Positions 7,427 to 64,000 of a stretch of 64,000 bases of DNA are shown here, piece after piece (positions within the stretch are counted from its first letter, which is position 1; the number at the start of each line of letters is the position of its first letter). The translations under genes and the position numbers were made by a program. Below the pieces are notes generated by a model that searched no databases, had not been told where the DNA came from, and saw only the letters and a program-made list of their open reading frames with translations. This stretch comes from Amoebophrya sp. A120 (taxonomy: Eukaryota > Protista > Dinoflagellata), in NCBI GenBank assembly GCA_905178155.1, contig CAJINV010000014.1, positions 1,229,858-1,293,857 on the forward strand, in the 5' to 3' direction.

Positions 7427-10400
7427 ATGTCGTCGGACGCGCCACCTCCACCGCCGATTACGGCCAGTACCATTGCTGATCCGACTAACGCAGCTGCAGC
7501 TCCACCCCGTGTGGCCAGCAATACTGCTGCAGCCGCGCCGACGTCGCTGACCCCTGCCGCCGTCCCAGTCAACGTGGGTGTGCAGCAGCAGCAGCAGCAG
7601 GTCCTGTCTGCTCAACCACCAGCGCCCGCACCGCCACGTTATGTTCACCAGCCGAATGCAGGAGTGATGCCTGGATCCGGACCAGCAGCCATGGCTGGTG
7701 GACAACCTGTAGTGACCCACCACCAGCCACAGTGCATCAACAGCAATTACCAGCAGCCGCCGCAACAGGTCGTCGCACACCAACACCAGCAGTACTACGC
7801 CCAGCCGCACCATGTGACGTCGGTCCAGCAAGGCGGCCCGGCGCACCTGCAGACGCCGGTGGCTGCTGCTCCTGCCCCGGTGCAGTACCACCAAATTCCG
7901 CACCGGCAGAACCCCGCGTACACGGAAGTTCAATTTGATGACGACTCAAGCCCGCCACCGTCGTCCGGGTGCTCTTATGCATTGTTGCAAATCTCCTAGC
8001 GTACTTTTGCTTTTTTGCAGAAACTGCATATAGCATTTTTATTTTCAAGCATCTCTATCTCGATCTTTGTATTGTCATCGTCACGCTGAAAGAAAAATTT
8101 CAAAGACAAAAAATGTGTCATGCATGGTTGCACCAATTAAAATCAGTACGACTACGATTTAGATTTTGCACAGGATAGCTCTGCGGGGGTGGTGATTTTG
8201 ATTGTAGCGGTGGTGCTGCTCGTCGTGGGTGGAATTACCGCCGGCGTGGTGATGTGGGTCGTGCACACGAATAATGCCGTATGAACGTTCACAGTTCCTC
8301 CTCCCCCTCACTTCGAATGCAAAAACAGAACTCCAGCTGTTGCCTTTTGGCACTATCTTACGTTCTAAATTTTTGCAACTGCAACACCCGAAACAGAAGT
8401 TTAATATTACGATCTATGCAGAGGGGGCATAGGCTTGTCCTGCAGGACGTTCATTTCATTTTGCCATTCATTGTCGTGCTGGTTCTGCATAAGAAATCAA
8501 TGAGGGACGAGGGGAGGAGTTTTGTACCCTCATACGTCGCCCAGGAATCGTACCAGGCTCAACCGGTGGGAACAGGCGGAGTAGGTACCGGCGCAGGACC
8601 GGGAAATGGTATAAAAATCTTGTTGGTCGCCTATCTTTTTCTTTGACTGTTCAGCCACCGAACGGATCATCTTCTGTTAGAGCCATTGATCATTCTCCAA
8701 TACCATCTTGAATCTTCCTTATATCGCCGCCGCCTCTTCGTCTTCCCCTCGACGGTTTTGTATCAAGATGAAATTATAGAATTTACTGCATGTGATTTTT
8801 TTTCGAGACTTAGTTCCCGATGATCGCGTTGGTGTACTTGTTGTTTGCTTTAGACTTTATTCTACTGCAATCTTCTACTTCCTACAGGTGGCGGCCTTGG
8901 CAGCAACAATAACAATAACAATAACAATAACAACAACACTAACAATAACAACAACACTAACAACAATAATAACAACAACAATAATAATCCACCGTTGCCG
9001 ATGTTTAGCCCGCCTGGCCCCCCGCCCCCGGCCCCGTGGGTGCCCGGGCAGGCGGCTGTGGCGCAGCCCAGTCACGTGCCGCTGAGCTACGACTCGAGCA
9101 CCGGCGAGACGATTTTTGTCCTGGACGAAGCCCAGCGCACGAAGCAAGTGCCGGACCTGCTCGGAAAAAAGCAGGTTGAGTACTTCAACTACTTGAAGTA
9201 TTCGCAGTTCGAAAACGACCCGTGGAAGGAAACACTCCCGGGGAACCACTTCGATCTGTTGGAGGAAGGAGACGTGTTCATCGCGGAGGAGGGGACCGAC
9301 GCGGGAAAAGCGACTTTGAAAAAGCGGTTGGAAACAGCGGCCACGGAGACGTTGGTGCATCACTTTTCGGAGAACATCACGAAAGATCGGATCCACCTCG
9401 GGTTGACCAACCCGAAAAGGAACCGGAAGGATGCGTGGAGCACGGCAGGAAGCCCGGATAAAAGCGTCAGGGACAAAAACGGTCTGATTCGGTACTTTTT
9501 CGAAATATTCAAAACAGACCATATGACTGGAGCAGATCGTATTTTTGACGTGTCCTGCTACCAGCACGAACTGAACCGCGTCTGGGACGGCGACGATTTT
9601 AATTGGACCTCGCCGACTCACTGGACCGAAAAACGGGTCCTGGCGATGAAGTACCGCCTGAAAGCGCAAATGGAAGATTTCTTGCAGGTGCGGCTTCACC
9701 ACCGCGAGCTGGACTTTTTGTTTTCGCAGTTCCACCTGGACGGCCGTGGGGGCCGGATGCACGGGCACTCAGCTGTACTAGGTCGTCTGTTTGAGATGAC
9801 GGAAAATAAGGTGCGGAAGATCGTTCAGGTGCTTTTCTGGGCGGCTTTCTTCTCCCGGCTGCGCATCGGGCGACTGATTATGCACCAGAAGAACGACACC
9901 TGGGATCAGGTTCCGGACCCTGTCGTGGCGGACGCGCGCGTGTTTCGCAATCCCCACGCGCCGGCGGTGTCGGATGTAGACAACCAACCGCTTTCCCCTA
10001 ATCTGGGCTTTGACCGCACCAGCTTCGCACCGCCGAAGATTCTGTACCATTACACGTCGCAGTACCGGCTGAGAGGTATCCGCTCCTCGGGAAAACTGAA
10101 GGGCACCACAGGTAGGATACATGAAACGACTGGTGTGCATTTGACCAATTTGCAGCCGGGGCTTTGGAGTTCGGAGGAGCAGAAAGTCGAGGTTAACATC
10201 GAACAAGACTATTTTCGCCAGTGCGTGATCGCGCTCGATACTGACGCGGTGGCGAAGAAACAAGGGTTCTATTTCGACCGGTTTGCCACGGTAACCGATG
10301 CCGCTGGGTCTGGCGTGTTGCACTCTTATTCTCATCCCGTGCACTACATGTCAGGCGATGGGCCGAAGATTCTTCCGGGAGATTTTCACGACAGTGAAGA

Positions 10401-11243
10401 TGCTACCTTGTGTAAAAACGTGGCCTACGCCCCATCTTTGTCATGCAAATCTGCATTTTAGTATTATATTAATTAAATCCCAATATGCTCCTTCTCGTGC
10501 GCAGGCCCACTAGAAGCGTTTTCTAGTCATGTTTGTGTTTCGGAATTTGTAATCCTCGGGCCAGGATATTGACAAGGTTCTCAATTTCTGACGATGCGGC
10601 TAAACTTGCGAAACATACATGGCTACTTAGACTCCAAGGCCAAATCTGTCTTACGCAACGCACAAAACTTGGCTGACTCGGGCGGCAAAATGTTGCACAT
10701 CTTGACTTTAATAAGGGGGGGACGTTTTTACACAGGATACGGCTGACGCCGACCTCCACTGATGCTCCGGCGTACGCCCGCCTTCTAGAACCGGTTGCAG
10801 CACACTATTGGGCACAGGGAATGGGAAAGCTGCGCTCCCAGATTTTTGTGCCGGAAACGGGCACCCCGGGGGTCGATGCCGACCTGATGCGTCGCCTTTC
10901 TGACGAGCGCTCGGAGGAAGTGAAGTGGGAGCTCTACACCAACATTCCCCGGCTTAACGCCACCCGCTCCAACGGCACCTATCTGGATGGCCCAAATTCG
11001 CACTGGATCGCCCGGAAACGGTCGGACTACTTGAACCCGCGGGGGCGCCGCGAGGGGGTTGACTTCTTGGTCGGTGACGCATCAGGGATCGATCTGAATG
11101 GTCTGCAGGAAGGCGTGGATTTCCTGGCTATCTGCGATCTGGACGCTTCGGATTCCACACGCAAGAACAGGCAACACGACTTGTTGAATGCCTGGGTCGG
11201 TCTCAAGGAAGGCCGCTACAAACCTCTGGAGACGCCACGATAA
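7427..11243 (+). CDS. Single-pass (type II-like) membrane protein: Pro/Gln-rich N-terminus, TM helix, poly-Asn linker, unknown domain, Tox-ART-HYD1-like ADP-ribosyltransferase domain. Exons approx 7427-7975, 8183-8279, 8540-8608, 8888-10403, 10745-11243
   Basis: Removing the 7976 and 8280 elements (each plus one DR) and a GT-AG intron 8609-8887 joins SGCS|AGVVILIVAVVLLVVGGITAGVVMWVV, NNA|AQESYQ and GN|GGGLGSNNN in frame with ORF 8995. LYHYTS...GIRSSGKL...GVHLTNLQPG at ~10042-10160. The last exon join is tentative. Confidence 0.7.
7976..8177. mobile_element. TIR/DR intron-like element, 202 bp, DR gctct
   Basis: gctct|tatgcattgttgcaaatct...agattttgcacaggata|gctct; removal restores the frame into the TM exon. 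Confidence 0.8.
8280..8534. mobile_element. Degenerate family-C TIR/DR element, 255 bp, DR tgccg/cgtcg
   Basis: Left end tatgaacgttcacagttcctcctccccctca resembles the 57018 element; right end gaggggaggagttttgtaccctcata; removal of element plus 5 nt is in frame. Confidence 0.65.
8903..8988 (+). repeat. (AAC/AAT)n coding microsatellite encoding poly-Asn
   Basis: aacaataacaataac... run in frame with ORF 8995. Confidence 0.85.
10404..10739. mobile_element. TIR element, 336 bp, DR decayed
   Basis: taccttgtgtaaaaacgt ... acgtttttacacaggata; removal of element plus 5 nt puts ORF 8995 in frame with ORF 10821; contains tttgtcatgc. Confidence 0.55.
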
Positions 11244-12854: not shown

Positions 12855-15025
12855 ATGGCGCTGTACGCGGACAACAGTAACACTACCAATTACAACATAA
12901 AGCACACGCGACAATGTTGCGTCTTTGTCGGGAACATCAGTTACGAGTGCACCGAGGAGAATCTGACGCAGATTTTCCATATCAAATGTAAAAATGTCTG
13001 AGTCTGGAAGAGTCATGCTGTTTTTGCATGACACAGAAGGTCTGGCATGGAAGCTCTAGCATCACAGGTTTCGAGAACCTTCCGCAATGCCGAATCCGCA
13101 TGACAAGTCCCCTATTTTGCTGGCAAAAAGTGGGAGCTTTTGCTACTTATGCATGAGAGACTTTTCTGTGTTCTGAAATACGCATTACAAGTTGCATTCT
13201 TCCAGACCCAGACATTTTTACATTTGGTATTCCAGCGCTGCGGGGCGGTGCACCAGTTCAAAATTTTGAAAGAAAAATATGGCGTTCTCAACTGTTACAT
13301 TCTCAAGTGTTACATGGATTTGTCATGCAAGAATGGGAAAAGTGAAAGGGGGGAGGTTGCATCTGTAGCATTACAAATTTCGAACAGATTTGGGTGCTGT
13401 TTAGCCATTCGCAAATTTGTTATGCGAAGCAGCTTGATCGTGTGGATCTTGATGATCATTTTGCATGACAAATCATGTAACAGTTGAGAATGTAACGTTT
13501 GAGAACGCCATAAAAAAGACGCCAAGACGCACAAGGGCTACGGGTTTTGCGAATTCAAGGACCCAGAAAGTGCGGAGCTCTGCACCAGGACCATGAACGG
13601 CGTGGAGTGCTATGGGCGGCCCTTAAGAATCGACACGGCCGACGTGGATGTCAAGACGTTGGAAATGCTCGGCGCCACGCGGCAGAGGGACTTCTTGGAA
13701 CTGCAGTCACAAATGGTCGGCGTGCATGAGGTAGGATTTATGCAAAATTTATGCTGCAACAAATACAAAAGTATGTGTATGCACTTCGAGTTTCTATTGG
13801 TGCTGTTCGCATGAATTGGTCTTGTTCGTAAATTCTTTACAAAAAATTGTTGCAGCTGGTGCATCTTCACTTTTGCATTAGACCGAATTATCCGCACGTT
13901 GAAACCGAAAGACAAAAAATGAACAAGGTGAATTACCAAGCCGAGGTGTCCGGGTTGATATCGACCCTGGCGACTTCCGAAGTGTTTTCAGCGCTGGCCC
14001 ACATGCAGCGGCTGGTGAAGAACAACGCCGAGGAGGCGCGCGCAATGCTGACCAAACACCCCGGGCTCGCGCACGCGATGCTGCACGCCCAGTTTCTCGC
14101 CGGGATGCATTCGAAGCCCATGCACTGCATGACCAAGAAGGAGATTGACCAGGCGAACTGGGAAAACCGCATCTCCCCGGGTAGTAACGGGAAGAACGGA
14201 CACACGGGCGGGTCGTACGCTAGCAACCACTACAACCAGCACGGGATGAACCACAACAACCGAGGGGGAATGAACAACAATCGCGGGGGTGGAGGACACC
14301 AGCCGCACAGTACAACTAGCGGCGCAGCAGGAGCTGCGTATGGCGACCGAGACCGAGATCATTACAATCGAAATCAGCAGAACTACAACAACAGTTCCTC
14401 ATCCGCCGGTGGAATGATGACGAGTAGAGACAGGCCAAACAACTACCCCTCCTCCTCCGGAAACCAACCCATCAACTTCTCGGACATCCAAAACCAGGAT
14501 CCGAGCGGCTACTCCGCCAGCAGACAAAACAGCACCAGCAACCCGAACAGCGCACGCGGAAACAAGGGGGACAACGAGATGACTGGAGGAGCTAGCAGCG
14601 CGAATCAAGCTTCGAATCAAGCTTCGATGAAGGATACCTGGAGGTATAGATACATGGCATAATGCTGGTCGGAACTATCAAGAACAATGCATGAACTAGT
14701 TTTAATATTCGGCTTGGACTCTCTTCAAAGTATCATTATCATAGAGGACAGTGACGTTTTTGTTTTCGATTTTTTTTTTCGTTTTCTTCGTAAAGCAATT
14801 CCGAATGATATATATCTATCAATCAGGTACGAAGACGCCCTCGCCTACAAGGGCAAGGGTTCTTCCGGCATGAGCGCCAATTTCACAAATGCGACCGGGG
14901 CCGGTTATTACGACGATTATGCGTCGTACGCGAGCTGGTACGGCAAGGGCGGCGGGTATGGCAAAGGCGGGGGATACGGCCGGTACGCCCCCTACGACAT
15001 GAATCGGGTTCGAAGAGTAGGATAA
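12855..15025 (+). CDS. CSTF2: Cleavage stimulation factor 64 kDa subunit (CstF-64/Rna15-like): RRM plus hinge domain. Exons approx 12855-12979, 13235-13277, 13518-13730, 13856-14643, 14827-15025
   Basis: Reconstructed RRM VFVGNISYECTEENLTQIFQ|RCGAVHQFKILKEK|DAKTHKGYGFCEFKDPESAELCTRTMNGVECYGRPLRIDTA and hinge LAHMQRLVKNNAEEARAMLTKHPGLAHAMLHAQ match the CstF-64 pattern. Third intron boundaries are ambiguous; the last intron is GT-AG 14644-14826. Confidence 0.9.
12980..13229. mobile_element. Family-A TIR/DR element, 250 bp, DR ttcca
   Basis: ttcca|tatcaaatgtaaaaatgtctgagtctggaag...cttccagacccagacatttttacatttggta|ttcca; removal restores the RRM. Confidence 0.92.
13278..13512. mobile_element. Family-B TIR/DR element, 235 bp, DR aaaaa
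   Basis: aaaaa|tatggcgttctcaactgttacattctcaa...ttgagaatgtaacgtttgagaacgccata|aaaaa; ~50-bp TIR; removal restores the RRM before RNP1 KGYGF. Confidence 0.92.
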
Positions 15026-24385: not shown

Positions 24386-24426
24386 GCTTCTTTTGTGTTT
24401 GTTCTCTCTTCCCGCACTTACAATAG
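24386..24426 (+). repeat. ~41-bp pyrimidine-rich motif ending in AG, copy 1
   Basis: gcttcttttgtgtttgttctctcttcccgcacttacaatag; near-identical copy at 26507-26561. Confidence 0.75.
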
Positions 24427-46900: not shown

Positions 46901-49900
46901 CCCGGCCGTGTTTCAGGAACACAGCTGGCCGTGGTTCCACGCGTTCCTCCTCGGGGCGATTCTGTCCGCGACGGACCCGGTGGCGGTGATTGCGGCCTTG
47001 AAGGCGCTCGGTGCGCCCGCGCGGTTGACCCTACTCGTCGCGGGCGAGGCGTTGCTGAACGACGCGACGGGCGTGGTTTTCTTCAACGTCTTTTGGGATT
47101 TAGCCCGCGACGACGCGTCGGACTTCAGTTTTTCCGACACCGTGGTGGACTTCGTGCGCCTCGCCGGCGGGGGGACGCTGTTTGCGGGCATCGGGATGCT
47201 GGTCATGCATCTCGGGTTGAAGTACACGCACCACATGTCGTCGAAAAACTTTTTGTTTTTGACTTTCTTCTGCGTTTTCGGCCTGTTTCTCGTCGCGGAA
47301 CAAACCTGGCTGCCGAAACCCTTCATGCCCTGGTCGGGTGTCTTAGCGGTCGTGATCTTCGCGTTCTACGTGTCCGCGTTCGGGCAAAACATGATCCTGC
47401 TGAACGGGGGAAGCCACTTAGCCCACGCGCACCACGAAGTGGTGTCCTTCGTCGCCGGCGTGGCGAACGACGTGCTGTTCTACCTCGCCGGGGTGGTGAT
47501 GTGCCGCTACTTGTTCTACAGCCTGATGACGGGAAACGACTGGATCATGCTCCTCATATGGATGTGTCAGGATCGAAATTGACAAAGTCGAAAAATTTGT
47601 GACGCATAAAATGTAGGGCACTGAAGGCCTGCACTGGGGAGCAGGCAAATAAGACCGATTGTGCGCCTGTTTAGGGGTATACAATGTGCTGCCGGAGTAG
47701 CATGACAGGAGCAGTCATCTTTGCCCAAACAGCATGACAGGCTAGATTTGGGCGCTCCCGAAATTTGTCATGCGCCACTTCGAGACTGAGGCTCCAACTG
47801 ACATCCATCGATTATCGCATCACAAATTTTTCGACTGTGCCAATTTCGATTCTGACACTTCCATACCTCACCCTCTACGCGTATTGTCACGTCGCCCGCG
47901 GGTCCGCAATCTTCTCCCTGATGCCGCTCCTCAGCTTGTTCGGGTTTGGCATGAACTGGAAGGAGGGTCTCATCGGCGTGATCGGCGGGCTTCGCGGGGC
48001 GGTGGGCTTGGCGATGGCATTGCTCGTCGCTTTCGACCATTCGGAGACGCCGCTGGACTTGGGGTTCCGGCTCCGGATCGGGTTCCACACGAGCGGGGTG
48101 GCGTTGTTAACCCTGTGTATCAACGGCGTGGCGTTTCCCTACATTTATAATTTCCTGGACATCTACCCCGCCGGGATTCAGCCCAGTCAAACGAAAATGC
48201 TGAAGTGCGCAACCTTAGCCGAGGGGATTTTGTTCGAGCGGCTCGCGGAGATGAAGGGCCACTGGCTGTTTTCGAACTTGAACCCCGAGCATTTGCTGGC
48301 GTTGGTCCCGCGAATCGCGGACATGCTGGCGGAGGAGGACGAAAAGATCGCGGACCGGAATGCGATGAAGAACACGGTTAAAAAGAAGAGGGGCAAGGAC
48401 AGTGACAGCGAGAAGGAGACTGGTCATGGGGACGGCCACCAGGGGGTCGAGGCAAGGCTGAAGCACCTGCACCACGAGTACCACGGGGACGGGTACTATT
48501 TCAAGACGTTTCGCCACGTGGCGGAGCGGAAAGAGCTCAATTTCCAGTGGGAAAAGAAAACGGGCCTGGCCAATTTTATCCTCCCGAGTGCGTCGGAGTC
48601 TTTCTCGCAGCGGAACGAGGACGCGGCCGCCTGGCTGCACGGGGGGTTCGGAAAGGACTACGAGATGGTGATCCACATTTTCTACTACGCCATGATGAGC
48701 GCGCTGGAGCGCGCGAAGCTCGAGCGGGGCAGCATGGCCATCTGGCCGGCGGCCGAGATCGGGGAGGCGCTGGAGTTTACGCACGAAGCGATGCAAGGGG
48801 TGTTACGCGCGGACAAGTCACTGAACAAGTCCGAGAACCTGATGATCAAAAAATTCTTCCCGAAAATGCCCGTGGACATCTGGACCGAGGACCAGGACAC
48901 GCAGCAGCTGTTCGCGCTGGAGGTGGGATTCTGCAAGCTGCTGTCCCGGTTGTTTGGCCGCGATTCCGACCTGCCCTGGGCCCTGCAAACCAGGTGCTGT
49001 CGCACGATGGGGACCAAATCGACCGACGTGGAGTCGGCCTCGAAGACGTTGCTGTTGTACTGTCTCCTGCTGGAAAACACGCGGGCGAGTCTGCAGCCAA
49101 TCTTGGCGGGTGGGGAAGAGGAGGCCGGTGCCTTGATGGACAAGGGCATCCGACAGTCCGTCGGTGGGGGCGGCGGTGTATCCATAATTGCAAAGCGACG
49201 GCTTCGGATAGTCTGGAAAGTTGTCATGCTAGAATTTGAATTTGTAAAAAGATATCATGTGATGAAGATGAATGGAAGAATATACTGACCACGAGCGACC
49301 GCTAGGCATGATAATGTTTTGTCGTCGCCCCATAAGCGACCGCTAAAAAGATTTATACGAACTGTGGCAAAAATCATCTTCCAGATAAACGTCGTCCGAC
49401 CACGTGTTTGCAATGCATACCTGATGCGCAAGTCCGTGGCGCTGGAAGCCATCCGTCAGAGCATGATGAACTCTGCGGGGAGCGACGATGTGGGTATTCC
49501 GGTGAAAGGCAAGAAAAGGAAATCCGTCGCAGGAGGCGGTCGGGCCAGCCGCCAGGCCAGCGTGCGGAAGAGCGGCCTCCGGTCCAGCAGGAATTCCGGG
49601 CCGGCCAGCGGGCTGTCCCTGTCGCTGGGGAAGAAGAAAAAAAAGAAGAAGGCCGAAGGGGATAGTAAAGACACTAGCGATTACTTTTATCGAATGCAAG
49701 TAGAAGGTTGATGATGGCTGGGTCTGAAAGAGTGCAGAAATGTTGGTCATGCTGGTTTGTCGTAGTGTTACTGACTCAGAAGGTGTCGCGTACAAGCTCT
49801 ACTATTGTACAGATTTTGAGAAGGTGTCTAAATGCCTACGCCGCATGAGAAAAAGTGCCCTCGGTTGGTGACAAGAAGTCGGCAACTTTTGCTGTTGATG

Positions 49901-51011
49901 CACGAGCAAGCTTTGCGCGACCGCGTCAAGAAATGCGCACCGTCAGCACAGGTTCGTTTGCATCGTTCCAGACCCAGCACACGACATCTTTGCAGTGCAT
50001 AACCCTGCTGTGGAAGCAATCCAGGTCTTCTCCGGAGATGATTCTGGGTCTCCCGTCACTTCCGAGGTAGACCAAGAAGATCTAGAAGAAGGAGATTTTT
50101 CCGACATGGAGAGGCAAGTTCAGGCCGTTGCGCGAGTTCTTACAGACTTAGGCATTACGGTCACTACGGGAGAAGCAGAAGAAGATTATAGTAATATGGT
50201 GCCAGCACCATCAGTACCAGTAGCACAGGACGGAGCTGCAGAGAGGCTACTCTCGCGACCTGTAGTAGAAGAAGAAGACCGCGAAGGCGACGTCGCGGCG
50301 GTAAGCGAAAGTACTAGTAGTGCGGACCTGCTTGCGATAGAAGAGCCTCAACATCAGATAGAACATGAAAGAAGTCTTCGCGACAGCAGAAGCGCAACTT
50401 CACCAGCAACCTTCGAGGGCCGACACAACATGCCGGTGAGGTCAGAAGATGAGAAGGAGGACACAGCTGGTGCGAAGAAGAAAAAGAAAAAAGCCCTGCC
50501 CGTCGGCGAAGCTCTCAACATGCTGGACCGCAGTCTGAGCGCCGTGCTGACTGCTGCGAGGACGACCTTGATCAAGTGCGTGTTTGAGAAATTTCCCTCC
50601 CAGTCCAACATCTGGCTCCACGCGTTTGTCTGCCAGGCGTTAACGCAGGACTTGTACAAGCAGTTGGAGTTATCAGAGAAGAACGGGTTGCTGTTACCAA
50701 ACGAATTAGAGTTGCTAAACCACAACGTTTTCCACGCCGTGCTTCACAAGCTCGCGAAGTACACGAACTTTGGGCACATTTCGGAAAACTTTCCCGATCT
50801 GGACGTAAATGTCAGACAGTCGAAGATAATCAGCAGGGGCAAAGTGTTAACAGTCGACGATATGGCGCTGCCGATTGGCCCGGTGGTTTTAGCAAATCTG
50901 AATAAGGAAATGACGCGAAAGCAACAAACCCGCGCCGCCGGGAAGCGGGCAAATAAAGCCGGTGGAGACAGACATAAGAGGAAAAAAGAATTACTAGATT
51001 ATCCGCATTAG
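43979..51011 (+). CDS. CPA1 Na+/H+ exchanger paralog 2, interrupted by four TIR elements
   Basis: Same motifs as paralog 1. Joins KECTQ|DEEIT, IMLL|TLYAYCH and GGG|(V/LM)RKSVALEAIR agree with paralog 1; the fourth join DY|(F/P)AVEA is supported by frame only. Start codon uncertain. Confidence 0.9.
45755..46077. mobile_element. TIR/DR element (distinct TIR family), 323 bp, DR cgcag/cccag
   Basis: tatcaaaaggaaaaatcccccctccccacatc...gatatggggagggggatttttgcttttgata; the join matches paralog 1 KDCTIDEEL. Confidence 0.88.
47557..47865. mobile_element. TIR/DR element (distinct TIR family), 309 bp, DR cctca
   Basis: cctca|tatggatgtgtcaggatcgaaattgacaaagtcgaaaaatttgtga...tcacaaatttttcgactgtgccaatttcgattctgacacttccata|cctca; lies inside a TM helix. 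Confidence 0.92.
49179..49419. mobile_element. Degenerate family-A-like TIR element, 241 bp
   Basis: tatccataattgcaaa..gtctggaaag ... cttccaga..tttgcaatgcata; contains an in-frame stop; element plus 5 nt = 246 nt keeps the frame to RKSVALEAIR; DR decayed. Confidence 0.6.
49688..50001. mobile_element. Degenerate family-A TIR element, 314 bp, DR acttt/accct
   Basis: tatcgaatgcaa..ctgggtctgaaag ... ttccagacccag..tttgcagtgcata; removal of element plus 5 nt joins ORFs 49319 and 49995 in frame. Confidence 0.7.
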
Positions 51012-52004: not shown

Positions 52005-55000
52005 ATGGTGGTCGTTAGGAGTGCTACAACTTCCCTACTTGCACTGCAAGTAGGAACGACAAGCATAATCCCTCTGGTTGTCGTTGCTCACGCCCTTTCT
52101 GCTGGACGCACTCGCAGCACTTCTCCCAGTGGTCTTCTGCAGAAGAAGCCGAGAAGGGGCACGAACCTGCTGCAGAGAGGGCGGAACGGAGCCGAAACTG
52201 CGGGCGCGGAAGATGTTGCCGTACTGGAAGTCGAAAAAGCGACAATCGTTGGTGACGAGATTCACCATTTGCAAAGCGCGACTTCTCTGTCGTCCTTGAC
52301 CACTGAGGATATTAAGGCGCTGGCGCAAGAAGATGAAACTGGAAGAAAACCCGCCTCTTCAGAAGATTGTGACGGGGCTAGGAGTTCATTCTCTTCTGCT
52401 TCCGGAACAACCACAAGGAACGTTGTCACTTTGGACTTGCAGGATGAGGCGGGGGAAAAGTTTCTGCAGATGAAAGATGCTGACAGGATGTTGAAACAGG
52501 ATAAAAAAAGCCGAACCGCCGGGCAATCATCTTCTGCATCTATGGACGAAAGAACGACAACTCTGGAAACATCTGCAGACGAAGAAGATCTTCAGCAAGT
52601 AGAACCAAATAAACAGGAGCGCACGGGCGAGACGATTCGGTCAGTCCGGGTGACGCACATTCCTGCCGGCATGAAGAAACCGTACGAGAGCTCGATTCCC
52701 AGTTTGTTTTTCCACCACTCGGCCTTTGTGCAGATGGAGCGGAGTGAAGCCGAGCAGGACATTGCAGTGGGGAATGCGTGGGAAAATGGGACGAGTGACG
52801 ATGTTCTCGCAGGAGCATCGTTTTTCGAGCACAGCGCGACGAAAAGTAGGAAGACGAAACATGCTCTGGCTGAACAGCAAGAGGAACGGAAAGAAGAGTC
52901 TCGAAAGGAGAAAACCGAGCAGAAACAGGTACAACCGCAGTTCCCACAGGGGCAAGCTGCTCAGCAAGGCGTAAACCAGTTTGGCGCTGGAGCTGCGCAG
53001 CAGTCGCAAAACATCAACCAATTTGGACAACAACAGCAGCAACTACTGCAGGCCTCTTCGACGAACGCAAACGCGAATGCTAGGCTGCAAACGCAAACGA
53101 CGAACGCAAACGCAAACGCAAACCCGTTCAGCGCCCCCGCGTTGCAACCACCGCAGTCGGGCGTCCGGTTGACTCCGCCCGAGGGGCGGGTGAACGCCTG
53201 CATGGACGAGGTTCCCTGGGTCGACACGCGCCTGAGCCAGCAGGAGCAGCTGCACCACGCTTTCCACGTGACGTTTTTCGCTCAAGCGGGGCACTGCGGC
53301 CACGGCGAGGAAATTCGGAGTCAGGCGTGTTGCCGCCAGGCTGGGGAGCATCTCTTCGGGGAAGCGGTCGCCAACAACATTGTCGCGAACAACTTCATGA
53401 TCCACCAGGGCCCGAACCTGCGCGGGTGTTGGTACCAGCAGGGCCCGGACGCGGGAAAACAGCTGTTCTGGAAAACCGTGGGCGACCCCCGGGACTTGAG
53501 ACACAACCACGGACCTTATTTGAGGGTATTAAGCATGAAGTAGATGCTGATTTGAAAATTTTGATTTGAACAGAAACTGCGGACGCGTTACTTAAGTAAG
53601 TTCTTTGAAAACAGGTAGCGCTATCATCAATAATGCTAGTTGTACTTCTCCCCGAAAATAAAGAATTTCCACTTTCGTCCTGCTCTCTTTTGATATCCAA
53701 CCCGCTCTACTAGTACCTACGTCTGGATCTGTAAGATGAACTAAAAACTACCCTTCCAGGTGTGCAAAGTTTTCCACGCGCCGCTGCACCACCCGCCGAT
53801 TTTCTACCCGCTTATGTTTCTGCTCGTGGCCCTGGTCGTGTCGGTTTGTGTGTCCTACACGGGGAAGCTGATCAACGGGTTTTTGCCGCCCTCGCTTCTC
53901 CTGGTGCTTTTCGGCTTTGCGACCAACTTCCTGGGCTACCTCTCTGGCCCCGAGTCCGAGATTGGTTACCTGGTCGAGCAGGCCAGTCACTGCGACCCGC
54001 ACGTGATCTTTTGGCTGTTGTTGCCCATGCTGCTGTACGAGGACGGAAGCGGCTCCGATTGGCGCGTCCTCCGGCCGATCTTCGTCAACGCAGTGATTCT
54101 CGCCGTTCCGGGCGTGGCGATCTCCTTCCTGATCATGGGCTGCTTGATTCGGACGACCTTTCCCCTGCCCCCGATCGAGGAACTGCACCCGGAGCACGTG
54201 TATCAAATGTAAAAATGTCTGGGTCTGGAAGAGTCCGAACTTGTGATGCTGCATTTGGATTCCAAAAAGATCTGTATTGCATGACCAGCAAAGGGAGTGC
54301 ACTTTTGGCTACGCGCAGAGGGCATTTGTCATGCGGAATAGGCATCATGAAGCCCTCAAAAAGTCTGTGATGCTACGGCATGCATTACAGACATCGTGGT
54401 GGCCCATGAAAAACGTGCATGGCAAGTCTCAGAATCTTCCAGACCCAGACACGTTTGCATTTGATAACGTGTGGATCTGCTTCTGGAACCAAGCCACCGG
54501 GCAAATGACGACGCAGGAGCGGAGCTTCAGCCCCGAAGACCCGCGGCGGTTCGCGCTGCGGCCGGTGATCCAACCGAACGGGAGCACGCAGATGCAGATG
54601 GTGCGGCGGAGTCCGCAGGAGTGGCAGACCCTGTACGTGAACAGGCCCTGTCAGGTGCCGCCGAACCCGAACGGCGGCGCCGTGGTGATCCCCGACCCCA
54701 CCAGTCGGGTGGACGGGGCCTGGCCCTGGATGATCTCCTTTCTACTCGGTGCCATCCTGTCCGCGACCGACCCCGTGGCCGTGATTGCCGCGCTGAAGCA
54801 GCTCGGCGCGCCGGCCAGGCTGAGTTTGCTCGTCGCGGGGGAGGCGTTGCTGAACGACGCGACCGGGGTTGTGTTCTTCAACCTGTTCTGGGAACTCGCC
54901 TCCACCGAGGCGGACTTCGACCCGGCGTACGCACTCTGGGTGTTCTTCCGGCTCGCGTGCCTCGGTCCGGTGGTCGCGTGCCTCGGGATGGGCGTGATGC

Positions 55001-58000
55001 ACGGTGTGTTGAAGGTCACCAACCACATCGAGGTGAAAAACTTCCTCTTCATGACCGTGTTTGTGGTGTTTTTCCTGTTCTTCTTCTCCGAGCAAACGAT
55101 CATCGGGGTCCCGCTCTTACCCGTGTCCGCGGTGCTGGCCGTGGTGGTTTTCTCGTTCTACGTGGCGGCCATCGGGCAGAACATGATCTTGTTGAACGGG
55201 GGGGAGCACTTGTCCCACGCGCACCACGAGGTGATCGGCTTCATCGCGGGGGTGTGCAACGACACCATTTTCTACGTCGCGGGCGTGGTGATGGCGAGAT
55301 ACTTGTTCTTTTCCTCCATGCTCAGCTCCGACTGGATGTTCCTGGGCATTTGCTACCTCTACTGCCACCTCGCCCGGGGCATCGCGATGTTCTCGCTGAT
55401 GCCGGTGATGAACTTCTTCGGGTTTGGCGTTTCCTGGAAGGAGGGCATCATCGGGGTGTTCGGGGGCCTGCGCGGGGCGGTCGGGCTCGCGATGGCGCTG
55501 CAGGTGGCCATGGACCACGGGAACAGCCCGTTGGACCTGGGGTTCCGACTCCGCATCGGGTTCCACGTGTCGGGCATCGCGTTGCTCACCCTGTCGATCA
55601 ACGGCGTGGTGTTCGGGAAGGTCTACAATGCGTTGAAGCTGTACCCGCCGGCCATCCAGCCGAGTCAAACGAAAATGCTGAAGTGCGCGACGCTGGCGGA
55701 GGGGATCATCTTCGAGCGGCTGCAGGAAATGAAGTCCCACTGGCTCTTCTGCAACATCTCCGCGGAGGCGATCCTCGGGCTGGTGCCCTACGCATTGCAA
55801 AAGTATCGTACTCGTGTAAATGCATCACAAATTTCCTCAGCATGAGAAAAAAAATTTGTAATGCGGATTTAGCTTAAGAACAAGACTTGTAATGCATGAT
55901 TGCAATACAACGAGTGCGATACTTTTGCACAGGATATGCACCGGATCTCGGACATGCTGGCAGACGCGGCGGGCCAGGAGTACGGAGGAGGACACGGCGG
56001 CAATAATCCATCTACGAGGAACCACGAGTTGCAGGACGACCTCCTGAACGCGGTGCAGGGGGGGCGCCCGGCGCAGAAGCAGTACAGCCACACGATGATG
56101 GAGGCTATGCACCACCTGCACCACGAGTTCCACGGCAGCGCGTACTACGAGAAACAGTTTGTGCAACTGTCGAAGGGGTGGAAGGCGGAAGACTTCCGGT
56201 GGGAACAGTGCTACGGCCTCACCTCGTTCATCATTCCCTCGGCCTCCGAGTCCTTCGCGCAGCGGAGTGAGGACGGCGCCGCCTGGCTGCAGGCGGGGTT
56301 CGGCCAGGACTACTCGATCATCATCGACATCTTTTTCGGCGCGGTCACGGGCTCGCTGCAACGGTTGAAGCGGGAGCGGTGCAGCATGGCGGTGTGGCCC
56401 GCGGACGAGATCAGCGAGGCTTTGGAATTTACGCACGAAGCCATGCAGGGCGTGCTGCGGTCGGACAACAGTCTGGACGGCACGGTTTCGCCCGTCATGA
56501 AGATGTTTTTCAAGGAGATGCCCATGCAGATCTGGACCGAGTCGCCGGAGATCCAGGAGAAGTGGGCGTTGGAAGTGGGGTTTTGCAAGCTCTTCCACCG
56601 GCTGTTCGGCACCGAGGTTCCGATGGACGCCAACACGGGGTCCGTCGAGGGCGGCGACTTTGCGCAGTTCGAGCACATATCAAATGCAAAAGTGTCTGGG
56701 TCTGGAAGAATGCGCGATTTGTCATGCAGCTTTTCCATGACCCATGAGGTCTGGAATGCAGCACCTAGCATGACAGACTCTGCGCGATCTCTCTCATGCC
56801 TATCCTGCATGAGAAACTTCCTCCCAACTTGGACAAAACTGGGCGACTTTTGGCAATCATGCAACACAGATTTGCAAAACGCGGTGCATCAGATTTGCAT
56901 GACAAGATTTGCATGCTTCAGATTTAGCATGACAAGTTGCATCCTTCCAGACCCAGACATTTTTACATTTGATAGCACAAGGGGCGAACCCTCCTGTTCT
57001 GGTGTCTGCTGATGGAATATGACAGTGCACAACTCCCCCTCTCCCTCATTTGTCATGCAAAATACCCAATCTACCCTTTGCCTCTTGGCACTGTTTGCAT
57101 GACAAGTTCTGGTAGCCCAAATAGCACTACAATCTAGTGTAAGTTTGTCATGCAAAACCGGCATTCTTGCTGATGCTTGTATTGCCGTTTATGCTATACA
57201 AATGAGGGGGAGCGGGAGTTGTGCACTGTCATATGGAAAATACAAGGGCCTCCTTGCAACCTATCGTCGCGGTCGGGATTGGGGAAAACTCGTCCTCAAG
57301 CTCGAGCAAGTTCGCTTCGGCGCAACGCAGCAGCGGGCGTGCGCGGGAAAACAGCCGCAACTCCGCGCAGAGGGCGAGCAACCGGCCGTCGGATCAGAAA
57401 GGGCCGGCAAACAAAGGTCCCATGGGAGAGGGCGAAGGGCGCGGCGGATCTGGTGCATCTGGGAGCATCGAAGCTGGAACCAGCAGCAGCTCGGGTGACG
57501 AAAGTACTACACAAGAACATCTTCAAAACCGAGCTTTTCGGACTGGCCAGACGCGGGAGGATTTGATTGCTGAGTATCACGCAGCGATGCAAGAGGATGA
57601 GGAGGATGTTGAGGAGAGCGCGGCAGATAGTTATGACAATTTCTACGAGGACGAAGCTCTTCACCAGCATGCTGATCCGGCACTGCTCGACGATAGCGGA
57701 ACAAGCAGAAGTAGCGGCACAAGCTCAACGTCGTCGGCGAGTAGCAACAATTCTACCGCGCGATCATCTTCGAGCAGCTTGGAAGAAGAGAACCTTGGAA
57801 CAGCTACAGCGAAGAATGCGTCCAGAACCAATAATTTCAAAAGCCGCAGCAGAAATTATCGGGAGACTATTCCCGCCTTCTTCTCCATCTTCTCCTCGTC
57901 ATCTCAGTCCTCTTCGGGGTCGGAGAACGAGCGCAGTGAAGATTTAAATACCAATACGCAACGAAGTAGATCTTCCCCTGCACAAGCACAACTAGCATCT

Positions 58001-59077
58001 TCGAGAAACCAAAATCACGTGAGGAAGAGCGCGCCATTCCATTTGTTCAAACAGGGTGCAGCTGCAGAGGGTGCTAGTACAACCACGGATGTTGTTGAAA
58101 CAAGAACCCGGCTGCAAAAGAACCTCGTCCACAATTCTACTTACTCTCGTCCCTCCACCGCTTCGGACGGCGACCTCGAGGAGTTCCTCCAGCAGGACGT
58201 CGAGAAAGCGCGTCGTGGGCTCTTTTTCGACGGCGCGCACGAGATGCCGTCGACCCAGAACGACCAGCGGTCGGGCAACACGAGTGGGCGGGCGAGCCAG
58301 CAGGCCGTCCCGCAGGCGGCGTTGGCGCAGTTGGACGTGAGTTTGCGGCGGATTCTGTACGCGACGTATCAAATGTAAAAATGTCTGGGTCTGGAAGAAT
58401 GCAACTTGTCATGCGAAATCTGAAGCATGCAAAAATCTGTATTGCATGATTACCAAAAGTCGTCCAGTTTTGACCAAGTCGGAAGGAAGTTTCTCATGCA
58501 GGATCGGCATGAGAGAGATCGCGCAGAATCTGTCATGCTAGGTCCTGCATTCCAGACCTCATGGGTTATGGAAAATCTGCATGACAAATCGCGCATTCTT
58601 CCAGACCCAGACATTTTTACACTTGATACGACGCGGGTGTTACTCATCAAGGCGGTGTTTGAGAAGTACCCGCGCGTCGGCCGGGTCTGGCTGCACGCCA
58701 TCGTCACCGAAGCGCTCACGCAGGACCTGTACAAACAGCTGGAGCTGTCCGCGACCTCGGGGCTGCTCACGGAGAAGGAGCTGGGGCTCTTCCACGACAA
58801 CGTGTTCCACGCGGTCACCCACGCGATCCAAAACTACCGGCAGATGCGCGGGCTGGACACCTTCGCGGCCATCGACAGCAAAGACGCGCCCCCCGGCTAC
58901 CGGGGCCCGCCGATCGGGCCGATCCACTTCGATTTGGGCGGGGAAAAGAACCGCCGCCAAGAAGCCCGGGACGTGCGGAAGAGGCTGCGGGGCCCGGGGA
59001 AGAACAGGAGAGAGCAGTTCACCGGCAACGGACAGAACACCGGGCAGAACAACAACGCCAGGGGGGCAAGTAAGTAA
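52005..59077 (+). CDS. CPA1 Na+/H+ exchanger paralog 3: one GT-AG intron (53526-53759) plus five TIR elements
   Basis: Joins YLR|VCKV, LVP|RISDML, FEH|KGRTLLFWCLLME|NTRASLQPI and LYAT|RVLLIKAVFEK agree with paralogs 1/2; PEHV|WICFW restores the frame. Signal-peptide-like N-terminus. Confidence 0.9.
54201..54466. mobile_element. Family-A TIR/DR element, 266 bp, DR acgtg
   Basis: acgtg|tatcaaatgtaaaaatgtctgggtctggaagag...cttccagacccagacacgtttgcatttgata|acgtg. Confidence 0.93.
55789..55936. mobile_element. Short TIR/DR element, 148 bp, DR tgccc/tgcac
   Basis: tacgcattgcaaaagtatcgtactcgt...acgagtgcgatacttttgcacaggata; the join gives LVPRISDML versus paralog LVPRIADML. Confidence 0.88.
56678..56974. 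mobile_element. Family-A TIR/DR element, 297 bp, DR gcaca
   Basis: gcaca|tatcaaatgcaaaagtgtctgggtctggaag...cttccagacccagacatttttacatttgata|gcaca. Confidence 0.93.
57018..57233. mobile_element. Family-C TIR/DR element, 216 bp, DR tggaa
   Basis: tggaa|tatgacagtgcacaactccccctctccctcatttgt...acaaatgagggggagcgggagttgtgcactgtcata|tggaa. Confidence 0.93.
58367..58628. mobile_element. Family-A TIR/DR element, 262 bp, DR cgacg; reverse complement of the 56678 copy
   Basis: cgacg|tatcaaatgtaaaaatgtctgggtctggaag...cttccagacccagacatttttacacttgata|cgacg. Confidence 0.93.
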
Positions 59078-60642
59078 AAATACTGGAGTTGATGGCACTT
59101 CTAAGACTGCTCCTGCGAGGGACTGATTTTGAATGCAGGGCATTCATCTTGAGGCGGATCTCTGTCATCCTTTTGTGTTTTTCGAGAAAATTGTCTTTTG
59201 TGTCCTCTTATGATTTTTTTTTTGCATTTTGCTTTTACTTTTTCATCTACGCCACGTGCGTCTTTTGTCAAATTTTGTTTTCACACACATTTTACACAAA
59301 CATTCATTCACATCATGCGCCAAAGCGAGCGAGCATTCGACTTCAAAATTTTCAATTTAGTCCTTTATACACACACACAACACAACACAACCCAAGTCCG
59401 AAAAAACCTAGCCTCATAACAGCCGCGCCCTTATGGTATAGATCAACTGTTCGCCATAGAGGATCGGCGTTCAGCTGCTCTCGGGCTGGGGGAGGGAGTA
59501 GCACGCAGCAGTCCGCTAAAGGGCACACTGCCAACATCATCACAACACAACTCAAATTCTTGCTTTTCCATTTTTTTGTTTGAATTCACTATCGTATACG
59601 TATTCGTAAATGTTGTTTGATTTCACCAACTATACTATCTTCCTGTGCTTGCATCATTTTATTCGTATTTATTATTCGCGTCCCCGTTTTATGATTTCAC
59701 CCCCGAAAACTATAGGAAGGTAAACCCACTTTCATAAGCATGTCCCTGGTATCCACGGTGGCGTAGTGTGAAACACCCGCCAAGTAACATGCTCCCCGAT
59801 GCTGGAACTACACGACAAAGCTCTGCACCTTTTCACAGCGCATGGAAAGAACAAGAAGCTTCTACCCGAAGTGAAGACGCGGCCCGATTTGATTCTGCGA
59901 AGAAAGATTTATGGATCCCCTGAAAAGATAACTCCCCCCTGCCAGTAGGATTCACTCCCAACCCCACAAGATGAAATAATTTTTCCATGAACCCATACAC
60001 CAACTTCGAAAACCAAGAACAAGTGCCTGATTGTTTTTTCTATGTAGTTCCCATCGAAGAAGTTACTTAGTGGTTGTTCTCGCCCTTTGTCGCGTTCGAT
60101 GTTAGAGCATCCAAATTCAGTCGTTTGCATATGTGGGCAGAGTAGAAGTCAAACATGTTGTGAAGGCATCATGTACAAGTATGCCGACGAATGCCCAGAG
60201 CAACTTTTCGGTTTCAACATCACGTCGTCGGTGTCTCTGCAACTACTTGAATGTTTCTCTATGTGTCGGTCGTGAATAAAAGACATAAGAAAAAAAATGA
60301 AACAATAGCAGGCAAGGTAGAAGTGAGAAGTGCAGAACAACTCACAAGCGACACATGTTGGGGCAGCAACGTACATTAGTTTCGCTTGTTGGCAATGGTC
60401 CTTGTACGCCAGGTGCAGTGTGCTCGCATAGCGTTGCCGCGCGACCACGACCCACTGCGCTCGTGCGTTGCCTGTCTCAAATCTTCTTCCCGTTGGCTCG
60501 CACGCGGTCAGGTGGAACCTGCCGGACGACAACAAAATGTAGACACTTTTCTATAACACCTGTAAGAGCAGAACGAAGAAATAGTAAACCCGCGGATGAG
60601 GAACAAAGGGCGACAGCACCAGCGGAGAGCGTCGAAAGGATC

Positions 60643-62110: not shown

Positions 62111-64000
62111 ATGGCCTCCACAACCTCCACGTCGATTGCAGCCAACAACACGTCTTTGCCCCTCATCCGCGGTCTCTTGGACCAACTGCAGGCGCACATC
62201 GAGGAGTATTCCATGAGTACCAACCGCACCCGGTGGAAACGGTTGAAAAACGACATCATCCTCAAAGACCAGGATTACGAGCAGGCACTGAAGCGACTAG
62301 ATCCCAAGAAGGGCGACTATGCATTGCAAATATGTCTGGGTCTGGAAAAATGCCAGGTTTGTCATGCTCTGCTAGCATGACTGTCAACGTCAAGTCTGTC
62401 ATGCAAGGTACCCACAAGCGCCACTTTTGTGTCATGCAAAAACCCAGCACCAGCTTCTCATGCAGAATAGGCAACACCAAGCGACTCAAAAACCTGTCAT
62501 GCTGAGCCGGCATTCCTGGCGTTCTCTTGATTCGCCAACCAGCATCAGAAGTTTCAGACCCAGACACATTTGCATTTCATAGCGACCTGGAAGTCCCGAC
62601 GTTCGTTGAGGCCCAGTTGAAGGACGACCTATCGGCGCTGGGCACCGTGGCGGCGGATGTCGCTGGGCACAGTTTTTTGTAACCTCTAAAGGCACGCTTG
62701 ATGAACTTGTTAGCTGTACCAATTCAAGAACAAATCTGCGTTTTTTTTGCAACCCGGAAGAGCGTAGTAGAACAAGGACAAGCTGGTTGGTACCGGTCGT
62801 CACCTCCGGAGTTGTGCACGACTTGACACCGATCCTGAAAATGCCAGTTTTGGCTCACCATAATTTGATGACCAATCACGACGCGGTCGAAAATTTCTCA
62901 TTTGGAATCCGAATTCAACAAGAGCTGTTGACCACAACGAAGCCTCTTCTACATAAACCGGCTCGATTTTTTTCAAGAGCAGCCAGCTCTTTTGCGGACC
63001 AGGACGGTGCCGCTGGTGATGCTGTAGACAACAACGTTGCCGCAGGCGAAAGCAGCACAGTGGGTGCCCAGGCAGGGGATGGAACTACAGGAGATGCGGC
63101 TTCGCCTACCCCCGCTCCTTTCTTCATCGACCCCGTCGACGGGAAGCGTACGTCGATGGAATTGAAGCAGTTTCCGGACAAAATCCCCTCTGTGATCTCC
63201 CCGTTGGACAACGTCCGGATAAAGCAAGTCTTTAACGTTCTCGGAAACAAGGCGATCACTTCCGCAGAGGAAGCGACGACAAACGAAAACACATCTGGGT
63301 GGCCGAAGAATTTCTGGAAGAAGTTCAACCAGCTGGTGCTCTCGAATGTGTGGAACGATTTCAAGGCGGCGTGTCAAGCCGGAAAGCTGGACAAGAAGGG
63401 CAAAAATAACACCCCCCTCGGGTGGGCGCCGCGCATCGAGGAAAAGAAGATGCAGATGGCCGAGGGGTGCGAAGTCATTTACCAGAGCTTGAAGAACAGG
63501 ATCGGGAAAGCGAAGGATTTAGTGGTTGGAAAACAGGACTACTTTGCGGTGCCCGGTGACCCAGTGGAGGAGTTCAACACCCCTGGAGGCGGGGGAGCAG
63601 AAGACGAACCACCGGTGAGTTTCTCGATCGATCCCTCTGAAGATGAGGGGGCAAGAACATCAGAAGTAGAACAAGCAGGACGAGGACCTTTTTACTACCC
63701 GGTTCTCCAGGGCCCGAACCAATTCCACAAGTTGTGTATGCCGGGCGGCGGCGACAAATCCTGGCTCGTGAACTTGGAACGCACCTGCAACGCCTACCAC
63801 AAGGAGCGGCAGGCGGAGTTGCAGGCCGAGGAGCCGGCACCGGAGGACGTTTTCCGGAATCCGGAATTGGCGAGCGCCGACGCGTCGCCGGCAGCTGTGG
63901 CGGAAAAGGAGGCGAAGAAGGAAGAATTCCGGAAGAGCATGGCGAAGATCCACGACGCCGGCGGGGGTCAGGTGGAAAAGCCGCTAGCGTCCTCTTCTTC
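62111..64000 (+). CDS. Unknown protein truncated by the window end; interrupted by one family-A element and probably a second short intron (~62677-62748)
   Basis: ORF 62111 continues KKGD|LEVPTFVE after element removal and then meets a stop at ~62680; another + frame is open from ~62750 to the end of the window. Confidence 0.6.
62318..62581. mobile_element. Family-A TIR/DR element, 264 bp, DR gcgac; opposite orientation to the related 28354 copy
   Basis: gcgac|tatgcattgcaaatatgtctgggtctgg...tcagacccagacacatttgcatttcata|gcgac. Confidence 0.88.

What the first reader, a model, noticed from the sequence alone, without database searches (positions are those of the whole stretch)
7976..62581. Window-wide system of TIR + 5-bp-DR insertions that must be removed precisely from essential genes without GT-AG
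Seen: 18 elements of 148-336 bp interrupt CDSs, all starting TAY and ending RTA, from at least five TIR families. Eleven have perfect and unrelated 5-bp DRs (gctct, ttcca, aaaaa, cgatc, tgtgt, cctca, acgtg, gcaca, tggaa, cgacg, gcgac). Removing element plus one DR restores conserved protein, including the RRM of CstF-64. Sliding the junction through these 11 DRs never gives GT-AG or GC-AG. Established: IR/DR-bounded non-canonical introns are reported in Amoebophrya, and to my knowledge their removal mechanism is unresolved. Inference: they are MITE-like DNA transposons made harmless either by structure-guided RNA splicing or by DNA-level excision, with the DRs acting like ciliate pointer repeats.
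Basis: partly seen in the sequence, partly recalled or inferred. Interest (0 to 1): 0.9.

Follow-up and report, generated by a model that had tools for sequence, protein, structure and literature searches.

The report
Transposon introns cut at fixed offset
These are the known transposon-like introns of the marine parasite Amoebophrya: they stay in the DNA, are missing from the RNA, and are likely cut at one fixed offset from their inverted ends without normal splice signals, which narrows the open question of how they are removed.

Summary
In detail: 18 TAY..RTA insertions, 11 with perfect 5-bp direct repeats (DRs). The host is an Amoebophrya close to or identical with strain A120, and the elements fit the A120 introner elements of Farhat et al. 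2021 (PMC7789003), so the system is already known. RNA contigs bridge 10 of the 11 elements in the stretches laid, each lacking exactly element + 5 nt, while DNA contigs keep them. DNA excision and ciliate-like pointers are not supported: removal is exact with DR identity of 1/5 and 3/5. Added here: five imperfect-DR joints share one cut, 1 nt before the left TIR and 4 nt after the right, where the paper called the sites variable. That puts the TIR's TA at intron +2/+3, as in GUA. In 264 elements of a relative, both orientations occur, with no bias for G at +1 or for AG. A relaxed spliceosome is likelier than a separate nuclease, but neither was tested. Only two joints exclude a cut 1 nt later, both with G at +1. 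The scan noted similar introns in other genomes.

The parts
7976..8177 (+). TIR element, perfect DR, in an unknown gene (7427-11245)
   Evidence: not tested with RNA
8280..8534 (+). TIR element, DR 3/5, related to 57018
   Evidence: not tested with RNA
10404..10739 (+). TIR element, DR 0/5; the only one in the window that could separate the two candidate cuts without G at +1
   Evidence: not tested with RNA
12980..13229 (+). TIR element, family A, perfect DR, in the CstF-64 RRM
   Evidence: not tested with RNA
13278..13512 (+). TIR element, family B, perfect DR, in the CstF-64 RRM
   Evidence: not tested with RNA
28354..28609 (+). TIR element, family A, perfect DR, in an unknown gene (27085-34572)
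   Evidence: not tested with RNA
33285..33525 (+). TIR element, family B, perfect DR
   Evidence: not tested with RNA
41056..41355 (+). TIR element, family A, DR 4/5, exchanger paralogue 1; GT-AG when cut at 41055-41359
   Evidence: RNA joint skips 305 nt
45755..46077 (+). TIR element, family C, DR 4/5, exchanger paralogue 2
   Evidence: RNA joint skips 328 nt
47557..47865 (+). TIR element, family D, perfect DR
   Evidence: RNA joint skips 314 nt
49179..49419 (+). degenerate TIR element, DR 1/5; intron fixed at 49178-49423 (GT..TG)
   Evidence: RNA joint skips 246 nt with no ambiguity
49688..50001 (+). degenerate family A element, DR 3/5
   Evidence: RNA joint skips 319 nt
54201..54466 (+). 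TIR element, family A, perfect DR, exchanger paralogue 3
   Evidence: removal follows from RNA contig length
55789..55936 (+). TIR element, DR 4/5
   Evidence: RNA contig pieces skip 153 nt
56678..56974 (+). TIR element, family A, perfect DR; reverse orientation of 58367 (83% over full length)
57018..57233 (+). TIR element, family E, perfect DR, behind a 38-nt exon
58367..58628 (+). TIR element, family A, perfect DR
   Evidence: RNA contig pieces skip 267 nt
62318..62581 (+). TIR element, family A, perfect DR
   Evidence: not bridged by a listed RNA contig
53526..53759 (+). canonical GT-AG intron, control: absent from the same RNA contig, present in the DNA contig
12855..14640 (+). CstF-64 gene, 5' part (RRM and hinge), with a canonical intron at 13731-13927

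Best explanation
These are Amoebophrya introner elements, likely small non-autonomous DNA transposons, that stay in the genome and are missing from the RNA as element plus 5 nt, likely cut at a fixed offset and likely by a relaxed major spliceosome. Step 1 (inferred): an unknown transposase inserts the element in either orientation, with no target preference, and duplicates 5 bp. Step 2 (shown for 10 elements): the transcript loses element + 5 nt, which restores the empty site. Step 3 (inferred from five joints): the 5' cut lies 1 nt before the left TIR and the 3' cut 4 nt after the right TIR, so the intron reads N-UAY...RUA-NNNN. The DR makes the product seamless but is not the signal. Step 4 (inferred, untested): the TIR supplies U+2, A+3 and U+4 in the register of a canonical GUA donor; the paired or protein-bound TIR ends replace U1 and U2AF recognition and set the 3' site by distance, with no need for G+1 or AG.
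For: RNA contigs lack element + 5 nt at 10 of 10 bridged elements, three of them by contig-length arithmetic, and the same contig lacks a GT-AG intron; DNA contigs keep both. Cuts compatible with the RNA (k = left-DR bases kept): 41056 k 0-4, 45755 k 2-5, 49179 k 4 only, 49688 k 4-5, 55789 k 4-5; only k = 4 fits all. I noted k = 4 and k = 5 as the candidates before the second lay. The mirror cut k = 1, which would put A at -2 as in AG, is excluded at 4 of 5. Both orientations: 56678 and 58367 in one transcript; 73 versus 61 among 134 assignable elements of a relative. 5-bp duplication: 262 of 372 TIR pairs, against 0-37 for other lengths. Element-free paralogues align without a gap at 45755, 47557, 54201, 55789, 57018, 58367. 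For the spliceosome: the register matches GUA, all five canonical donors I read in the window start GTA, one element is a GT-AG intron in that register, nearly all spliceosome proteins and U2, U4, U5, U6 are reported in A120 while U1 and snRNP27 were not detected (PMC7789003), loss of SNRNP27K is linked to U at +4 (PMC10581693 abstract), and a U2 spliceosome removes TIR-derived non-GT-AG introns in Fritillaria (PMC13326754, PMC11282704).
Against: The register rests on five joints from one RNA sample; five random cuts would share some common k 8% of the time and k = 4 1% of the time. Only 41056 and 49179 exclude k = 5, and both have G at +1. No trace of spliceosomal selection in the relative: G at +1 in 69 of 252, AG at -2/-1 in 19 of 252, mismatches at +1 favour G on the intron copy 6 times and on the exon copy 6 times; no +1/-1 pairing bias (44 observed, 39 expected). 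Fritillaria's commonest classes keep A at -2; these elements keep nothing there. The terminal TA is equally conserved at both ends (199 and 197 of 200), which transposition alone explains. No excess of G-U over A-C mismatches in the stems (241 versus 256). The T-at-+2 pattern in the paper's Table S4 is not independent support, because annotation slides within the DR. No lariat, circle or transposase was seen.
Confidence: 0.55

Rival explanations
1. Same RNA-level removal and same offset, but by a non-spliceosomal endonuclease and ligase that reads the TIR ends, as suspected for euglenid nonconventional introns.
For: No constraint at +1, -2 or -1 in 252-264 elements. Symmetric signal that works in both orientations. 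Exons as short as 17 nt between elements. Euglenid TIR introns leave as circles without lariats (PMC11282704).
Against: The cut falls in the GUA register (one of six possible). The DRs are not self-complementary, so a bulge-helix-bulge substrate does not form (0.93 versus 0.91 pairs in shuffles). Two exactly removed elements have no significant fold. No candidate enzyme was seen.
Confidence: 0.33
2. The elements are excised from somatic DNA, with the DRs acting as ciliate-like pointers.
For: The TIR + DR anatomy allows precise excision. Contigs drop rare variants, 412 joints were not shown, and the life stages of the runs are unknown.
Against: DNA contigs cross from exon 25-33 nt into the elements without a fork at depth 40-45 and keep the canonical intron. 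Removal is exact with DR 1/5 and 3/5. Unrepaired DR mismatches persist in 59 of 311 oriented elements. A separate somatic nucleus is not known to me in Amoebophrya (recalled).
Confidence: 0.04
3. The joints are reverse-transcriptase template-switch artefacts at hairpins with short repeats, and real mRNAs keep the elements or use other sites.
For: Hairpin plus short DR is the known signature of such artefacts (PMC4176328 passages). The data are cDNA-derived contigs from one sample.
Against: Retention truncates the frame in 18 of 18, including CstF-64. Joints restore the paralogue and PDB register. They are exact at element + 5 even with DR 1/5 and no significant fold.
Confidence: 0.04

Closest known systems
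Introner elements among the non-canonical introns of Amoebophrya A120 and A25 (Farhat et al. 2021, PMC7789003)
   Same: Host genus, TAT + 7 nt + AAA terminal motif, 3-5-nt DRs (a 5-bp example in the Fig. S19 legend), length near 240 nt, many families, RNA-supported non-GT-AG junctions, no internal transposase.
   Different: The paper calls splice sites variable relative to the hairpin and finds no dinucleotide signature. Here five joints fit one offset, and the duplication is 5 bp only. Whether this genome is A120 itself was not determined (nearest named protein 91% identical).
Euglenid nonconventional introns (as reviewed in PMC11282704)
   Same: TIR stem joining the intron ends, TSD-like repeats, no GT-AG, presumed MITE origin, unknown machinery.
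   Different: Their conserved pairing is CAG/CTG at +4..+6 and -8..-6 with Y|R junctions; here the TIR starts at +2 and ends at -5 with no junction preference. Circles are shown there and untested here.
Fritillaria borealis non-canonical introns (PMC13326754, PMC11282704)
   Same: MITE-derived TIR introns without GT-AG, removed precisely from mRNA.
   Different: They have preferred ends (AG-AC, AG-AT), retain U1 and have duplicated U2AF; spliceosomal removal is reported there and not tested here.
IS3EU/GingerRoot DNA transposons (PMC10045372)
   Same: TA..TA termini.
   Different: Usually 6-bp duplications; here 5 bp (0 of 372 at 6 bp). No transposase was found to test kinship.
Ciliate internal eliminated sequences with pointer repeats (recalled)
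   Same: Short insert in coding DNA, one repeat copy left after removal.
   Different: Removal here is seen in RNA and not in DNA, and repeat identity is dispensable.

Membership tests
Amoebophrya introner elements (A120 type) | Host is Amoebophrya | tested here: met
   TerD-domain protein 91% identical to A120, 62% to A25
Amoebophrya introner elements (A120 type) | Removed from RNA, mostly without GT-AG | tested here: met
   10 of 10 bridged elements removed; 9 of them cannot be GT-AG
Amoebophrya introner elements (A120 type) | 8-20 nt terminal inverted repeat | tested here: met
   14 of 18 reach >=16/20 ungapped matches; the other four are weaker
Amoebophrya introner elements (A120 type) | 3-5 nt direct repeat at the borders | tested here: met
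   11 of 18 perfect 5-bp, 3 more at 4/5
Amoebophrya introner elements (A120 type) | IR begins TAT, then 7 nt, then at least three A | tested here: met
   13 of 18 on at least one end, 10 on both, counting TAY; same profile in 264 elements of a relative
Amoebophrya introner elements (A120 type) | Repeated in families | tested here: met
   BLAST families in the window; element depth far above exon depth in the DNA run (not a copy number)
MITE (non-autonomous TIR DNA transposon) | TIRs, fixed-length target duplication, insertion into empty sites in both orientations | tested here: met
MITE (non-autonomous TIR DNA transposon) | Autonomous partner with a transposase and the same ends | tested here: inconclusive
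   none in 110 of 128 long ORFs scanned, nor in 5 long TIR pairs, in 557 kb of a relative; no whole genome held
IS3EU/GingerRoot | TA..TA termini | tested here: met
IS3EU/GingerRoot | 6-bp target duplication | tested here: not met
   5 bp in 262 of 372, 6 bp in 0
U2-type spliceosomal intron | GT (or GC) donor and AG acceptor | tested here: not met
   1 of 18 in the window; 5 of 264 GT-AG at k = 4 in a relative
U2-type spliceosomal intron | Lariat intermediate, dependence on U2/U5/U6 | not testable with these tools
   only assembled contigs of matching RNA were available
Euglenid nonconventional intron | CAG/CTG pairing at +4..+6 and -8..-6, Y|R junctions | tested here: not met
   TIR consensus and junction bases differ
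Euglenid nonconventional intron | Excised as full-length circle | not testable with these tools
   no back-joint among the 7 joints, but contigs cannot show absence
Ciliate IES / pointer system | Element deleted from somatic DNA | tested here: not met
   one DNA run keeps the elements; rare alleles and other stages not excluded
Ciliate IES / pointer system | Matching repeats needed for the joint | tested here: not met
   exact joints at DR 1/5 and 3/5

The most novel reading that the evidence does not exclude
Amoebophrya runs a separate, non-spliceosomal mRNA splicing machine for most of its introns: a factor reads the transposon end motif on RNA in either orientation, cuts 1 nt outside the 5' end and 4 nt outside the 3' end whatever the flanking bases, and ligates the exons, making any insertion of the element seamless. 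Neither a perfect repeat nor a strong hairpin is needed.
Probability: 0.3. Interest if true: 0.85.

Novelty: already known. Interest (0 to 1): 0.45.

Why it matters
The intron class is published, but its splice positions were left as variable and its machinery as unknown. A fixed offset turns tens of thousands of apparently arbitrary junctions into one rule. It predicts the exact ends of the excised RNA, which lariat or circle sequencing can test, and it would fix gene models. Either outcome is notable: a spliceosome that ignores G+1 and the 3' AG altogether, or a second splicing chemistry. A short sequence that removes itself seamlessly from RNA in both orientations at any target would also explain how these transposons spread into conserved genes such as CstF-64 and RPB1.

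Tried and rejected
Raw RNA reads X10 and X11 (same species label) covered only a 35-nt repeat, so they are not usable for this genome. X7 held element fragments and almost no exon sequence. No whole genome is held. Protein searches for the gene holding 8280 and 10404, meant to read the junction residue, found nothing at near or longer lengths, so k = 4 versus 5 without G at +1 stays open. Using DR mismatches in the relative to pick the exonic copy had no power; one search had a frame error on minus-strand elements, fixed. An apparent dynein motif in L056 was a misreading. Mismatches are synonymous in 32 of 60, against 43% expected if only the exonic copy is constrained (p = 0.12; p = 0.02 under weaker selection): a hint of constraint on both copies, not a result. 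My idea of selection towards G at +1 and AG failed. Table S4 of PMC7789003 first looked like independent support for T at +2; k = 1 explains it nearly as well (13% versus 19%) and annotated A120 families show both GT and AG excess, so I dropped it as evidence. The open-frame control in the relative was weak: 70 of 116 for +5, 68 for +8, 51-55 for frame-shifting lengths. No transposase, no Rfam match in the window, no TIR match in viral contigs. Symmetric pairs at 41761-41972 and 41962-42212 lie inside an RNA-covered exon and are not elements. Searches for a later paper giving the register or the mechanism found none; Roy et al. 2023 and Henriet et al. 2019 were not read, and figures (Figs 3, 4, S19-S25 of PMC7789003) were seen as legends only and may already show the offset.
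Full report
Observation. A scan for TAY..RTA pairs recovered all 11 perfect 5-bp DR elements at the stated places. Seven more with degenerate DRs bring the count to 18, of 148-336 bp, mean 262, 44% GC. Pairs with at least 16/20 TIR matches number 18 in the window, 10 with a perfect DR, against 0.075 and 0 in 40 resampled windows; perfect DRs alone arise by chance about 8 times. BLAST groups them into at least five families. All host genes are on the + strand. Removing element + 5 nt opens frames of 909, 2326, 2230, 1939 and 1874 aa, and keeping any single element brings an earlier stop in 18 of 18. The CstF-64 RRM is split by two elements; its first and third exons match PDB 1p1t 20 residues apart, exactly the spliced distance, and the hinge domain follows. 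Element-free exchanger paralogues align without a gap at six insertion sites; the other four lie in poorly aligned regions. None of the 11 perfect-DR joints can slide to GT-AG or GC-AG, but 41056 can.

What it is. An intron-free TerD-domain protein of the window is 91% identical to one of Amoebophrya sp. A120 and 62% to A25; I did not determine whether the genome is A120 or a close sister. Farhat et al. 2021 (PMC7789003; I read the abstract, passages covering sections 11, 12 and 32, sections 10, 16 and 36, and parts 3-4 plus figure legends of the supplement) describe more than 60% non-canonical introns supported by RNA-seq, with 8-20 nt inverted repeats, 3-5 nt DRs and, in A120, ends of TAT + 7 nt + AAA and a mean length of 240 nt. 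Thirteen of the 18 have that motif on at least one end. This is the same class.

RNA or DNA. Nine runs hold the stretch. X1 behaves as DNA: flat depth of about 45 across genes and spacers, the canonical intron at 53526 kept, and contigs that run 25-33 nt into the elements without forking. X3, X4 and X5, one sample, behave as RNA: a 6183-nt contig of X3 has exactly the length expected after loss of that GT-AG intron and five elements each with 5 nt, and one spacer bin has no cover. With, 10 of the 11 elements in the laid stretches are bridged, all at element + 5; three of these rest on length arithmetic, 62318 was not bridged, and seven elements outside the stretches, both CstF-64 ones included, were not tested. 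Limits: contigs hide rare variants, 412 joints were not shown, and life stages are unknown. Template switching (PMC4176328, passages) is unlikely, because retention destroys the frames and joints are exact where the DR is 1/5 and the fold is no better than shuffles. Young elements fold strongly (z -10.6 and -6.3).

Where the cut lies. Perfect DRs hide the cut; imperfect ones show it. With k the number of left-DR bases kept, the RNA allows k 0-4 at 41056, 2-5 at 45755, 4 only at 49179, 4-5 at 49688 and 4-5 at 55789. Only k = 4 fits all: the intron begins 1 nt before the TIR and ends 4 nt after it. At 49179 a second GT two bases upstream is not used, and a 3-nt insertion in the left TIR does not shift the cut. 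Independent random cuts would share some k in 8% of cases and k = 4 in 1%, so this is suggestive, not proven, and the two joints that exclude k = 5 both have G at +1. The paper's Fig. 3 legend calls the sites variable; I could not see the figure. Its Table S4 lists only T-at-+2 motifs as predominant in both strains, but sliding within DRs can produce that, so I do not count it.

A larger sample. A TIR pattern found 134 loci (557 kb) of a relative in metagenome contigs; its elements are 75-94% identical to the window's and no exon overlaps. Of 372 TIR pairs, 262 have a perfect 5-bp DR, and no other length from 2 to 9 stands out. A codon model oriented them (20 of 20 correct on window joints; 419 of 469 within-locus pairs agree). 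Of 264 oriented elements with DR at least 4/5, 134 could be assigned to a family orientation: 73 one way, 61 the other. Target sites show no base preference, no +1/-1 covariation beyond exon dinucleotides and no self-complementarity, and exons between elements go down to 17 nt. G at +1 (69 of 252) and AG at the 3' end (19 of 252) are at background. The terminal T is kept in 199 of 200 5' ends and 197 of 200 3' ends. Elements interrupt RPB1 in L042. No transposase was found in 110 of 128 long ORFs or in five long TIR pairs. TA..TA ends resemble IS3EU/GingerRoot, which usually make 6-bp duplications (PMC10045372, passages); one A120 introner family with integrase-like ORFs between TIRs is reported (PMC12130899, passages and supplement rows).

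Mechanism. Removal from RNA is about 92% likely, the fixed 1 + 4 offset about 75%, and the machinery is open. I favour a relaxed U2/U6 spliceosome (0.55 overall): the offset puts the TIR's U, A, U at +2, +3, +4 as in the canonical donors read here, which all start GTA; most spliceosome parts are reported present, with U1 and snRNP27 undetected; loss of SNRNP27K goes with U at +4 (PMC10581693, abstract only); and Fritillaria is a precedent (PMC13326754, abstract, passages, section 30). Against it, nothing is conserved at +1, -2 or -1, which goes further than Fritillaria and resembles euglenid introns that leave as circles (PMC11282704, section 6). A non-spliceosomal nuclease and ligase gets 0.33. 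In either case the signal is the TIR end, and the DR only makes the joint seamless.

Novelty. The class, its MITE-like nature and the open mechanism are in print, also in a 2024 review (PMC11453091, passages; PMC12787238 and PMC11170887 passages added nothing). I found no paper giving a fixed offset, orientation independence or dispensability of the DR (searches; subscription papers and figures not seen). Earlier notes of this scan report similar introns in three other genomes, one with a fixed cut; I did not test them. Verdict: already known, with one testable refinement. Interest 0.45.

Noticed in passing
window 15454-24195 (+): Intron-free 2913-aa ORF with a reverse transcriptase domain (RVT_1, E 4e-12), probably a non-LTR retrotransposon; no TIR element was called inside it.
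   Followed up: partly
window 35820-59077 (+): Three tandem Na+/H+ exchanger paralogues of 1874-2230 aa with long low-complexity N-termini, carrying 1, 4 and 5 elements at different sites, so the insertions postdate the duplications.
   Followed up: partly
window 24532-26034 (+): Intron-free double TerD-domain gene; its nearest non-Amoebophrya named relatives are in Triparma (Parmales) at 42-46% identity.
   Followed up: partly
window 7427-11245 (+): Predicted 909-aa protein with a Gln/Pro-rich start, one hydrophobic stretch, an Asn run and a weak, below-cutoff Tox-ART-HYD1 match (E 0.002); no homologue found.
   Followed up: partly
window 1-149 and 5829-5869: A 19th element of family C cut off by the window start, in reverse orientation, and a lone family A right end in an apparently non-coding stretch.
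   Followed up: no
window 13731-13927: The canonical GT-AG intron of CstF-64 contains an inverted pair resembling a decayed TIR element, so some canonical introns may hold or derive from old elements.
   Followed up: no
window 59496-59530: A 35-nt stretch that draws reads from otherwise non-matching RNA runs, all continuing into one common sequence; a small repeat or RNA fragment, with no Rfam match.
   Followed up: no
L042 5001-5972, L027 3862-4492, L038 5001-6031: Long family A TIR pairs (631-1031 bp) with perfect 5-bp repeats and no long ORF; possibly nested or composite elements.
   Followed up: partly
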